Of a stretch of DNA of 64,000 nucleotides, positions 48,801 through 51,800 are shown piece by piece. Origin of the DNA: Podarcis vaucheri (taxonomy: Eukaryota); the NCBI GenBank assembly GCA_965113315.1, contig OZ220377.1. One strand, 5' to 3'. The position numbers are program-made. Numbering within the stretch: position 1 is the stretch's first letter; each line of letters starts with the position of its first letter.

Positions 48801-51800
48801 AGGTGGATGTACCGTAGATTCCGGCGTATTAGGCGACTGGGCATATTAGACGACCCCCCAAATTGGCAGCTGCAATTTGGGGGTTCGTCTTATAAGCCCA
48901 GTTGCCTAATACGCTGGGCAGCTCCACGCCGGGAGAAAGCTGCCCAGAGCGGAGCACGCCGCCCCTGCTGCTGCTTCCAAAGCAGCAGTGGGCGGGCTCC
49001 GCGCCAGGCGGCTCTCTCCCAGTGTGGAGCTGAGTCCGCCACTGCTGCGGCAGCTTCGGAGCTGCCACAGCAACAGCGGGGGGGTGGATACTCGGTGTAT
49101 AAGATGACCCCTGACTTTTTAACCTCTTTTCTAGTGTTAAAAAGTCATCTTATATGCCAGAATTTACGGTATTTCCCAATAAATACAAGGCTCTTTGCTA
49201 AAAAGTATCATAAATATATGAGTCAAATATGCTATTTTCTCCCCAAACAAGGGGAGTCCACTTTTGTTTATGGGCAGTGTTCTCTCTAGAGCACGTCTTC
49301 AACATTTTCAGTCCTGAGACCTGCCTTTAACTTAAACATGTATTTGGGGACCCATTTCTTTTCTTTCCTTCTTTTTACCACTAAGGCAATAGTGTAATTG
49401 TAGCCATTGTAGACCAGACTATGACCCAGTAGGGAATTCCTGCAGACCAGTGCTCCAGAGTAGAGCTTCCCTAACTGTGGTCCACAGACATCATTCAGGT
49501 GGCCTGCAATCGTTCTCTGGATTTGTGGTTAAAAATGAGAGATCTATCAAATTAAATATGTATATTGAAATTTTAATTGTGTTTATATTGCTTTCTTATT
49601 TCTTTTATTTCCTTTTATTGTATTACATGAAACAATAAAATACAATAAGAATGATTTTTTAAAACAAAAGCAATAAAAATACATTTAAATTTATGCAGCT
49701 TTTGACAGAACACATTACAAGGCAAAAAACAAACAATTAAAATGTATTTATTTATTTTATTAAAAAATTATACACTGCTTAATTTTTATAAAACCCCAAA
49801 GTGGTTTACAAAAAGATAAAAGAAAAAAAATCAAGAAAAAATGCAACCAAACTTTAAAACATACAAAAGTAAAAATACTAAAAGATGTTAAAATTACTTC
49901 AACTTTCCTTTCAAATTAAATGTTCTACCAACACCCTCAGCAAATTTCAAGTGGTCCATTAGGGGCAGTTTGGCAACTGCTGCTCTAGAGCATATTGTGG
50001 TGTCAGTGTTACTCCATCAAAGATTTAGATCAGGATGGCCAAACTTGGCCCTCCAGCTGTTTTGGGACTACAACTCCCATCATCCCTAGCTAACAGTACC
50101 GGTGGTCAGGGATGATGGGAACTGTAGTCCCAAAACAGCTGGAGGGCCAAGTTTGATTTAGATGAACCCAGCTGTGGATTTCAGACTGACAACCCCTTTC
50201 TAGTTTTTGAAATTATCAGGAATAATTTCTTTTCGCTTATGTGGGGATGAAACGGGAAACAAATGCACATCAGGATGGGAAACTTGACTTTGGTGTCTTA
50301 ATTCAGACCCCTTCCTTTTATCTTCGTGAGAGGACAGAAATGTTTCCACCAGGCGTATAAGTGTTGAAGCAGAAGGTGCTGCTGAACCTCTCTTGGCAGA
50401 GCATCCCACAAGAATGGGCCGTTGACACCAAAGGCACAGTTTCCTGTTGTTGTCCAATAAGCCTCACCAACTCAGGGAATGTCCAGCAACGCCCCTGCTG
50501 ACGATATCGCTGATTGAGCTGGGATAAAGATCCAGGCAGCCCCTGAGATACTCTGGATCGAAGCTGATGAGGGATTTGTAAATTAATGCAAGGACTTTGG
50601 ACCTGGCTTGGTAGTAGATGGTCCATAATATGGCTGCACTTTGCAATAGTTAAGTGTGTGTATGTGTGTGTATAGAATCATCAAGGTTAATATCATCAAT
50701 ATTGATATTGATATTATTAATATAAAGTTGCTAACCTGCAACTTTAATAATATATGGAATTTAAGCTAGCTGCTATATTGCCTTTGACTTTAAATAGGCT
50801 TACATGTGGCTGTTATCCAATCTCCTCCTCACTACACCCCCAAATCCAATCCCAACCATGTACAGTATTTGTCTTTTCTGGTCAGCCAGGTTGGCTCTTT
50901 AATGCACATTGAAAGGACATTGCTTCCCTCAAAGAATCCTGGGAAATGTAGCTCTGTGAGGGGTAGCTGTAACTCTGTAAATCACCATTCAGCTTCTTCT
51001 TTAAAAGTGTTTTGCATAATGTCTGAACTGATCCAGAGAGACCAAGAGCGAGCGGCTGCTGCAGTGACGGGACCAGCGGCAGCAAGGCTACCAAAGAGGA
51101 AGCCCAGGCCCTCCTCTTCTTCGCCCTGGCCATCCCAGTTGCCAGCCTGGCTGGTGCTCTGCAGACTGGGCTCCAACGGGATCTCTGCAGCTTCCCCACT
51201 CAGAGGCGGTGACTTAGCCGCCATCTCAACAACCGAGGAGGCAGCTTCACTCTCAGCCTCTGCTGCCTCCTCAGCAGCAGAGGAGGAAGGGGGCAGTGGC
51301 TGCCCCAACCGAGGAGAGTCCACCATGTCACTCAGCTTGGCTCTCTCACACCTTTGCTTGGCTGCTCTCAGAGGCTCATACAGCAACAATGCGGGAGGAG
51401 TGGGGATTGGTTGAAAAACCAGCAGAAAAAGGCCAGGCCACCACCAAGAACAGGTCAGTAGCACAAATCGGAAGTGGAGGAAGATCTGGGGGAGAGTAAC
51501 GGGAGAATCCTGCCGGTGTAAATAACACAATAGGAAAAACTTGGGCTTTCTTTACCAATAAAATGCAGCATTAAGGAAAGTCATTTTCACAGGTCTGGCT
51601 GTTCAGGTATTTGCATCAGCTGTTTATATAGTGAGGTTTGGGTACAAATTCCTCTTGTTTGGATAAGTGAATTTTCATGTAATGAGCATTCAGACAGCAG
51701 GACCTGCATGTATTGAGATTTCTGTTGGACATACTCAGTGGCGTAGCGTGGGGGGTGCAGGGGGGGCCGGCCGCACCGGCCGCAACATCTGGGGGTTAGG

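What the first reader, a model, noticed from the sequence alone, without database searches (positions are those of the whole stretch)
51025..51530. Orphan AEBP2-like first exon apparently captured with promoter sequence, antisense in the PEBP4 intron
Seen: a GC-rich, non-TE-looking island whose minus-strand frame is stop-free and matches the AEBP2 N-terminus colinearly (best block EPSLQSTSQAG vs EPSPESASQAG at 51141-73). P>L, A>T and A>V changes fit CpG deamination. Upstream are a CCAAT box (51406-10) and an ETS core CGGAAGTG (51469-76). No downstream AEBP2 exons, poly(A) or TSD are visible. Retrocopies normally keep the 3' end, so a 5'-only piece suggests DNA-level capture of a CpG-island promoter and exon (break repair or transposon transduplication). 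It could act as a cryptic antisense promoter or small-ORF source. The AEBP2 identity is from memory.
Basis: partly seen in the sequence, partly recalled or inferred. Interest (0 to 1): 0.68.

Follow-up and report, generated by a model that had tools for sequence, protein, structure and literature searches.

The report
Decayed promoter-and-first-exon relic in intron
A roughly 490-base GC-rich block looks like the worn-out remains of a gene's promoter and first coding exon, lying backwards inside a PEBP-family gene; it is probably an inert gene fragment, and its suggested AEBP2 origin could not be checked here.

Summary
The sequence features are real. A GC-rich block (about 51030-51516, GC 0.60 against 0.43 for the window) carries a stop-free minus-strand frame. 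The minus frame is modestly better than chance: it is fully open in 71 of 2000 shuffles, and G at codon position 1 is 0.48, reached by 43 of 5000 shuffles.

The block is not a present-day CpG island. CpG observed/expected is 0.32, close to the window's 0.24. It has no tandem repeats, no other copy in the window, no Pfam family, no poly(A) and no significant target-site duplication.

A PBP-domain exon with AG/GT borders lies at 35270-35386 (+). "Antisense, downstream of a PEBP-family exon" therefore holds. "PEBP4" and "intron" are inferred.

AEBP2 identity stayed untested, because no vertebrate sequence collection was open and solved PRC2 structures use the short AEBP2 isoform. Two small indications favour it and published data weaken it.

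My best reading is a CpG-decayed, probably silent fragment of a promoter plus first coding exon, placed more likely by a patch-type insertion than by canonical retroposition. It is an ordinary kind of feature, of low interest.

The parts
51030..51516 (-). GC-rich, CpG-depleted, single-copy block (the feature proper)
   Evidence: Over 51030-51515: GC 0.597, CpG o/e 0.32, TG o/e 1.20, CA o/e 1.38. Flanks have GC 0.39 and 0.37. No repeat in the window and no tandem repeat.
50982..51326 (-). ATG-initiated open frame of 114 codons plus stop. It is rich in Glu, Ser, Ala and Pro; its last ~35 codons run into AT-rich flank.
   Evidence: translation. Composition of the first 77 residues: E 13, S 12, A 12, P 8. 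Pfam 0 families. Atlas: no usable hit, recognition 1080.
51096..51326 (-). Segment with three-base periodicity in phase with the open frame
   Evidence: G at codon positions 1/2/3 = 0.48/0.18/0.40. 43 of 5000 mononucleotide shuffles reach 0.48 in any phase.
51141..51173 (-).
   Evidence: 8 of 11 to the 11-mer quoted in the finding. It is the only position above 6 of 11 among 127,936. That the 11-mer belongs to AEBP2 is recalled, not tested.
51217..51225 (-). GATGGCGGC motif holding the second in-frame ATG (51224-51222)
   Evidence: 2 matches in the window against 0.06 expected; 0 of 100 shuffles reach 2. Its likeness to YY1-type sites near start sites is recalled.
51406..51410 (-). CCAAT pentamer, 80 nt upstream of the first ATG
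   Evidence: Read. A pentamer is expected about once in 500 bases on two strands (inference).
51469..51476 (+). ETS-core octamer CGGAAGTG
   Evidence: Only copy in 64 kb; 0.42 expected for the whole window.
50976..50985 (.). Left copy of a 9-of-10 direct repeat (TGTAAATCAC) flanking the block. Candidate target-site duplication, not significant.
   Evidence: family D13. Matches of 9 of 10 or better occur in 13.9% of 3000 random placements of the same geometry.
51517..51526 (.). Right copy of that direct repeat (TGTAAATAAC)
35270..35386 (+). Context: PEBP-family exon (GYHRYQF motif), with AG acceptor and AG|GTAAGG donor
   Evidence: Pfam PF01161 PBP, E 4.9e-05, 24.1 bits against a cut-off of 24. 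All 17 PDB sequences at E<=1 carry names I recognise as PEBP-type proteins. Splice sites read.

Best explanation
The block at about 51030-51516 is a decayed, single-copy relic of a housekeeping-type promoter together with the start of a protein-coding first exon. It is oriented on the minus strand, in non-repetitive AT-rich DNA, antisense to and 15.7 kb downstream of a PEBP-family exon.

Shown:
- the composition step;
- the promoter-type motif cluster;
- two well-contexted ATGs;
- an open frame with codon-phase periodicity;
- loss of CpG to near background.

Inferred:
- It was once CpG-rich and has been methylated in the germ line for a long time, so it is most likely transcriptionally silent now, a dead gene fragment rather than a working promoter.
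- It arrived as a short patch copied from a gene's 5' end. The likeliest route is a templated insertion at a DNA break, from DNA or from a short promoter-proximal transcript, because poly(A), a significant target-site duplication and further exons are all missing.

The parent gene may be AEBP2. I put that at roughly 0.35-0.4, and it is not established here.
For: - GC 0.60 against flanks of 0.37-0.39.
- The only CGGAAGTG of the window lies in the block. GATGGCGGC is present, with 0.06 expected in the whole window. CCAAT lies 80 nt upstream of the ATG.
- The minus frame is fully open in the block, as in 71 of 2000 shuffles.
- G1/G2/G3 = 0.48/0.18/0.40 in that same frame; 43 of 5000 shuffles reach it.
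- No repeat copy in the window, no TE domain and no tandem repeat.
- No poly(A) run on the minus strand before 50985. The flanking direct repeat is not significant (13.9%).
- No finger exon downstream.
- CpG o/e is 0.32 against 0.24 for the window.

For AEBP2 in particular:
- The printed mouse Aebp2 start primer (PMC2685092) matches 13 of 24 in the register that puts its 3' ATG on the ATG at 51326-51324. That score is reached by 6 of 928 offsets in the block and 129 of 127,954 in the window.
- My own recollection of the human N-terminus also lines up in several colinear blocks. This is recalled and not tested.
Against: - No homologue of any kind was found by a tool. Pfam gave 0 families. The PDB gave 2 chance-level hits, neither AEBP2. 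The Atlas gave no usable hit, with recognition 1080, below the 2300 that 91 in 100 proteins of known families reach.
- The sequence is low-complexity: E, S and A make 37 of the first 77 residues. Short matches are therefore cheap, and an 8-of-11 match to some protein of a proteome is expected by chance (inference).
- The + strand has a 206-codon open frame over the same DNA.
- The open-frame statistic is only about 3.6%.
- TG and CA excess is no higher than the window average. Former CpG richness is therefore assumed, not shown.
- Kim et al. 2009 report the AEBP2 acidic and neutral domains as lineage-specific, tandem-repeated and CpG-dense. Kim et al. 2015 state that non-mammalian vertebrates have only a form like the short embryonic one. 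The block has neither tandem repeats nor CpG density, and only a four-residue Glu run.
- A 13-of-24 match is weak. The script's second register, on the ATG at 51224, was set two bases off, so it is void.
Confidence: 0.45

Rival explanations
1. It is an in-situ, lineage-specific promoter and first exon of an unannotated antisense transcript or nested gene (non-coding or small ORF). On this reading it was not copied from elsewhere.
For: The same motif cluster, ATG context and periodicity as for the best explanation. No junction signature of insertion.
Against: CpG o/e of 0.32 is near background, so the block has not been kept unmethylated like an active GC-rich promoter. Only weak candidate splice donors follow the frame (read, my judgement). 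No family recognises the ORF. No expression data were available.
Confidence: 0.15
2. It is a fragment of an unrecognised, low-copy transposable element, such as an LTR or the GC-rich 5' region of a retroelement, whose internal promoter explains the motifs.
For: The neighbourhood is full of mobile elements: MITEs at 50031-50155 and 51736-51904, a palindromic element near 48800-49170, and a non-LTR retrotransposon at 53009-56112. Retroelement 5' ends carry promoters (general knowledge).
Against: No second copy in 64 kb: 0 of 701 bases are covered by repeats. The best stray hit is 38 nt. No TE protein domain. I saw no TG...CA ends or terminal inverted repeats at the borders of the block. 64 kb is too little to exclude a low-copy family.
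Confidence: 0.17
3. It is a canonical LINE-mediated retrocopy of a short, prematurely polyadenylated transcript (first exon plus the start of intron 1). Its A-tail and 10-base target-site duplication (TGTAAATCAC / TGTAAATAAC) have decayed.
For: A 9-of-10 direct repeat sits exactly at the two composition borders (D13). The last ~35 nt of the insert on the minus strand are A-rich. Class 1 templated insertions of polyadenylated non-LINE RNA are documented (PMC5110952, passages).
Against: Such a repeat arises in 13.9% of random placements. There is no A run longer than four, no AATAAA or ATTAAA before the end, and 8 non-A-rich bases separate the A-rich stretch from the repeat.
Confidence: 0.1
4. 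It is a chance GC-rich, low-complexity stretch with no gene ancestry, and the AEBP2 likeness is a coincidence of Ala/Glu/Ser/Pro-rich sequence.
For: Both strands are open. 3.6% of shuffles give a full open frame. No database recognises the ORF. Other GC-rich, CpG-poor stretches exist in the window, for example 41501-42086 with o/e 0.16.
Against: Several independent oddities coincide in about 490 bases: the only ETS octamer of the window, GATGGCGGC, periodicity in the open frame (43 of 5000) and the unique 8-of-11 block.
Confidence: 0.13

Closest known systems
Class 2 templated sequence insertions (patch repair of a double-strand break with a copy of distant, usually transcribed, sequence; Onozawa and Aplan, PMC5110952, passages read)
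   Same: A short piece of gene-like sequence in an unrelated locus, with no poly(A) tract, no polyadenylation signal and no significant target-site duplication.
   Different: The donor locus is unknown here. Junction microhomology or a microdeletion cannot be read without an empty site. The class was described in human cells and populations, not in squamates.
Processed pseudogenes and class 1 (LINE-mediated) insertions
   Same: A gene-derived, promoterless-looking dead copy, CpG-decayed, in an intron.
   Different: These keep the 3' end, a poly(A) tail and a target-site duplication. Here only a 5' piece is present, no A-tail is seen and the flanking repeat is at chance level.
AEBP2 exon 1b (acidic plus neutral N-terminal domains; Kim et al. 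2009, PMC2685092, passages)
   Same: An ATG-initiated, Glu/Ser/Ala/Pro-rich, presumably unstructured N-terminal coding stretch in one exon. The mouse start primer matches 13 of 24 in register.
   Different: The block has no long Asp/Glu arrays, no Gly/Ser-rich neutral domain, no tandem-repeat structure and low CpG. The paper calls these domains lineage-specific. No direct comparison with any AEBP2 N-terminus was possible.
Orphan or decayed CpG islands
   Same: A GC-rich block with promoter-type motifs away from any annotated gene start.
   Different: CpG o/e of 0.32 fails the usual island criterion of 0.6 or more, which is a recalled convention.

Membership tests
AEBP2 5' end (promoter plus exon 1) | Significant DNA or protein similarity to the AEBP2 promoter and exon 1 of the same or a related species | not testable with these tools
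   No vertebrate genome or protein collection was open. The PDB search found no AEBP2 at E<=10, but structures use the short isoform. The only indications are the 8-of-11 block and the 13-of-24 primer register.
AEBP2 5' end (promoter plus exon 1) | An acidic domain (arrays of Glu/Asp) followed by a neutral Gly/Ser domain in one exon (PMC2685092) | tested here: inconclusive
   E makes 13 of 77 residues with one EEEE run. No Gly/Ser arrays follow; the frame runs into Ala-rich and then AT-rich sequence. Lizard AEBP2 was not described in the paper.
AEBP2 5' end (promoter plus exon 1) | [quoted passage not shown] | tested here: not met
   TRF gave no array in 51030-51516. CpG o/e is 0.26 over 51090-51326. 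Loss of CpG would be expected in a methylated dead copy.
AEBP2 5' end (promoter plus exon 1) | Downstream zinc-finger exons on the same strand | tested here: not met
   The C2H2 motif scan of all six frames gave no convincing finger on the minus strand below 50985. This is a regex scan only.
CpG island promoter | GC of 0.5-0.55 or more and CpG o/e of 0.6 or more over at least 200 bases (recalled convention) | tested here: not met
   GC is 0.585-0.617, but o/e is 0.31-0.32. None of the 19 qualifying 200-base windows overlaps the block.
LINE-mediated processed retrocopy | Poly(A) tail and polyadenylation signal at the 3' end | tested here: not met
   The minus strand over 51040-50986 has no A run longer than 4 and no AATAAA or ATTAAA.
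LINE-mediated processed retrocopy | Target-site duplication | tested here: inconclusive
   A 9-of-10 repeat lies at 50976-85 and 51517-26. A match as good is found in 13.9% of 3000 random placements.
Class 2 templated sequence insertion | A donor copy elsewhere in the genome, and an empty site in relatives | not testable with these tools
   This needs the genome assembly and related genomes.
Transposable element | Multiple dispersed copies, TE protein domains or terminal repeats | tested here: not met
   0 of 701 bases are repeated in the window. Pfam gave 0 families. I saw no terminal repeats at the borders. The genome-wide copy number was not testable.
PEBP (PBP) family exon (context) | A Pfam PBP match at or above the curated cut-off, and the GxHRY motif | tested here: met
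   PF01161, 24.1 bits against 24, E 4.9e-05. GYHRY lies at 35302-35316. 17 PDB sequences with PEBP-type names (my recognition) match at E<=1. Assignment to PEBP4 was not testable; the likeness of HRYQF to PEBP4 is recalled.

The most novel reading that the evidence does not exclude
A promoter-plus-first-exon module of the Polycomb cofactor gene AEBP2 was copied at the DNA level, promoter included, into an intron of a PEBP4-like gene in a lizard. It still fires as an antisense promoter or yields a new small protein. That would be a natural case of promoter capture seeding a new transcription unit.
Probability: 0.06. Interest if true: 0.5.

Novelty: new member of a known kind. Interest (0 to 1): 0.2.

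Why it matters
If the parent is confirmed and the similarity runs upstream of its transcription start, this would be a clean example of a 5'-only gene fragment copied with promoter DNA. That would bear on how break repair scatters regulatory modules through vertebrate genomes.

As the sequence stands, it is CpG-decayed and recognised by no family or database tried here, with no sign of a downstream exon. It is most likely one more inert gene fragment in a large intron, of little consequence for the host gene.

Tried and rejected
- PDB sequence search with the 189-codon frame found 2 chance-level hits and no AEBP2. I judged this uninformative after reading that structures use the short isoform.
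- Pfam on both strands' frames gave nothing.
- The ESM Atlas failed once because the machine was busy. The repeat gave no usable hit.
- Rfam at E<=1 on 49500-53000 gave two weak GC-hairpin matches in the block: mir-3960 at 28.7 bits against 73, and mir-1913 at 21 bits against 105. I take these as chance.
- A solo-LTR reading was rejected: no TG...CA ends, no polyadenylation signal.
- A transduplication by the neighbouring MITE was rejected. That element (51736-51904) is complete, with its own inverted ends and 8-base duplication, and the block lies outside it.
- The true AEBP2 locus was rejected: no finger exons downstream, and a PBP exon lies on the other strand.
- I looked for further PEBP exons. 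Motif scans found none, so whether an exon lies beyond 51.5 kb is unknown.
- In the mouse-primer test, the second register was mis-set by two bases, so it is void.
- Structure and complex prediction were not run. A low-complexity 114-residue frame would give an uninformative model.

Full report
**What is there**

The window has GC 0.427, CpG observed/expected 0.24 and no N. Between about 51030 and 51516, GC rises to 0.60. The flanks have GC 0.39 (50500-51029) and 0.37 (51516-51735).

On the minus strand one frame is stop-free from 51551 to 50982, 189 codons. Within it:
- An ATG at 51326-51324 has G at -3 and G at +4.
- A second in-frame ATG at 51224-51222 lies inside GATGGCGGC.
- From the first ATG the frame reads 114 codons. 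In the first 77, Glu (13), Ser (12), Ala (12) and Pro (8) dominate.

The coordinates in the finding are therefore right.

**Is it more than chance?**

Partly.
- A fully open frame appears in some phase in 71 of 2000 dinucleotide-preserving shuffles of 51025-51530. The mean longest run is 112 codons.
- The plus strand has its own 206-codon open frame over much the same DNA. Openness alone is therefore weak evidence.
- G occupies 0.48 of first codon positions in 51326-51096, against 0.18 of second positions. Only 43 of 5000 shuffles reach 0.48 in any phase. This is the usual signature of coding sequence, and it sits in the same phase as the open frame.
- CGGAAGTG occurs once in 64 kb, in this block, with 0.42 expected for the whole window.
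- GATGGCGGC occurs twice, with 0.06 expected. The other copy, at 22489-22497, sits in unremarkable sequence.
- A CCAAT pentamer is expected by chance.

Taken together, the block looks like the 5' end of a gene: a promoter-type motif cluster, then an ATG-initiated coding stretch.

**What it is not**

- It is not a present CpG island. It holds 14 CpGs, o/e 0.32. None of the 19 island-like 200-base windows in the scan overlaps it. TG and CA excess is no higher than the window average.
- It is not a tandem repeat.
- It is not a repeat within the window. 96 non-self HSPs cover 12.6% of the window but 0 of the 701 bases of 50900-51600. A sensitive blastn finds nothing longer than 38 nt.
- Pfam finds no family on either strand.
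- The Atlas gives no usable hit, with recognition 1080.
- Rfam gives only two chance-level hairpin matches.
- There is no poly(A) run or polyadenylation signal at the minus-strand end.
- A 9-of-10 direct repeat (TGTAAATCAC at 50976-85, TGTAAATAAC at 51517-26) sits neatly at the two composition borders. A match as good turns up in 13.9% of 3000 random placements.
- No C2H2-finger exon lies downstream on the minus strand by motif scan.

**Context**

An exon at 35270-35386 (+) has an AG acceptor and an AG|GTAAGG donor. It encodes a GYHRYQF stretch.
- It matches Pfam PBP: E 4.9e-05, 24.1 bits against a cut-off of 24.
- It matches 17 PDB sequences at E<=1 whose names I recognise as PEBP-type proteins.

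It was searched on its own.

The finding therefore lies antisense to, and 15.7 kb downstream of, a PEBP-family exon that must splice onward. That it lies in an intron is inferred. The PEBP4 assignment rests on a recalled motif and on the very long introns.

Mobile elements surround the block. The block is inside none of them.

I do not take the window for human. No outside contig was fetched.

**AEBP2**

This could not be tested directly. The remaining genome collection holds bacteria and archaea, so I did not use it.

The PDB search found no AEBP2 at E<=10. However, the PRC2 structural work states that it used the shorter isoform, which lacks the extended unstructured region (PMC3482686, passages).

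In favour:
- The mouse Aebp2 start primer printed in PMC2685092 matches 13 of 24 in the register that places its 3' ATG on the window's first ATG. That score is reached by 6 of 928 offsets in the block.
- My own recollection of the human N-terminus agrees with a colinear match. This is recalled only.

Against:
- Kim et al. 2009 describe the acidic and neutral N-terminal domains as lineage-specific, with no obvious similarity between mammals and fish. They describe them as tandem-repeated and CpG-dense, and they could not size the lizard gene (PMC2685092, passages). Its supplementary sequences were not seen.
- Kim et al. 2015 say that other vertebrates have only a form like the short embryonic one (PMC4411029, sections 3 and 5).
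- In Ala/Glu/Ser/Pro-rich sequence, an 8-of-11 match to some protein is cheap.

I put AEBP2 parentage at roughly 0.35-0.4.

**Mechanism**

The most likely story is as follows. A short copy of a gene's 5' end was inserted here, became methylated, and lost its CpGs while keeping much of its GC. It is now silent.

The lack of an A-tail, of a significant duplication and of further exons fits a patch-type templated insertion at a break (class 2 of Onozawa and Aplan, PMC5110952, passages). It fits a canonical LINE-mediated retrocopy less well. A retrocopy of a prematurely polyadenylated transcript with decayed ends remains possible.

The rivals are an in-situ lineage-specific antisense exon, an unrecognised low-copy TE fragment, and plain chance.

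**Verdict**

It is an ordinary kind of feature, and I score interest at 0.2.

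Noticed in passing
window 51728-51912: A complete MITE. It has perfect 17-nt terminal inverted repeats (51736-52 and 51888-904), an 8-base direct duplication GACATACT on both sides, and an internal 22-nt unit repeated 2.6 times. CpG o/e is 0.74, so it is younger than the neighbouring block. It is hAT-like by the 8-base duplication, which is a recalled rule.
   Followed up: partly
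window 50031-50155 and 33472-33597: A palindromic MITE in two copies (86% identity). It matches the Rfam miRNA families mir-5408 and mir-3122 on both strands, below gathering score (56 and 53 bits against 90 and 92). It is probably a TE-derived hairpin family.
   Followed up: partly
window 48790-49170: A CpG-rich (o/e 0.65-0.72) element with a 98-nt internal palindrome at 48821-48917. It looks like another young transposon, not a gene promoter.
   Followed up: no
window 53009-56112 (+); 23166-23417: A non-LTR retrotransposon with endonuclease (PF14529, PF03372) and reverse-transcriptase (PF00078) frames, broken into several ORFs. Its last ~250 nt recur at 23166-23417 (91% identity).
   Followed up: partly
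window 62511-63998 (-) and 13867-14709 (+): Two copies of a reverse-transcriptase-bearing LINE with nearly identical protein stretches. The first has a 495-codon open frame that runs off the window end (RVT_1, E 4e-34), so the family may have been active recently.
   Followed up: no
window 1-64000: Only one PBP-domain exon (35270-35386) was recognised in 64 kb. No DPDxP-motif exon was seen, so the host gene has very long introns.
   Followed up: partly
window 41501-42086 and 44901-45386: Other GC-rich (0.55-0.56) but CpG-poor (o/e 0.16 and 0.36) stretches, one next to a (TAT)n-type run coding poly-Tyr. I did not examine them. They show that GC-rich, CpG-poor blocks are not unique to the finding.
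   Followed up: no
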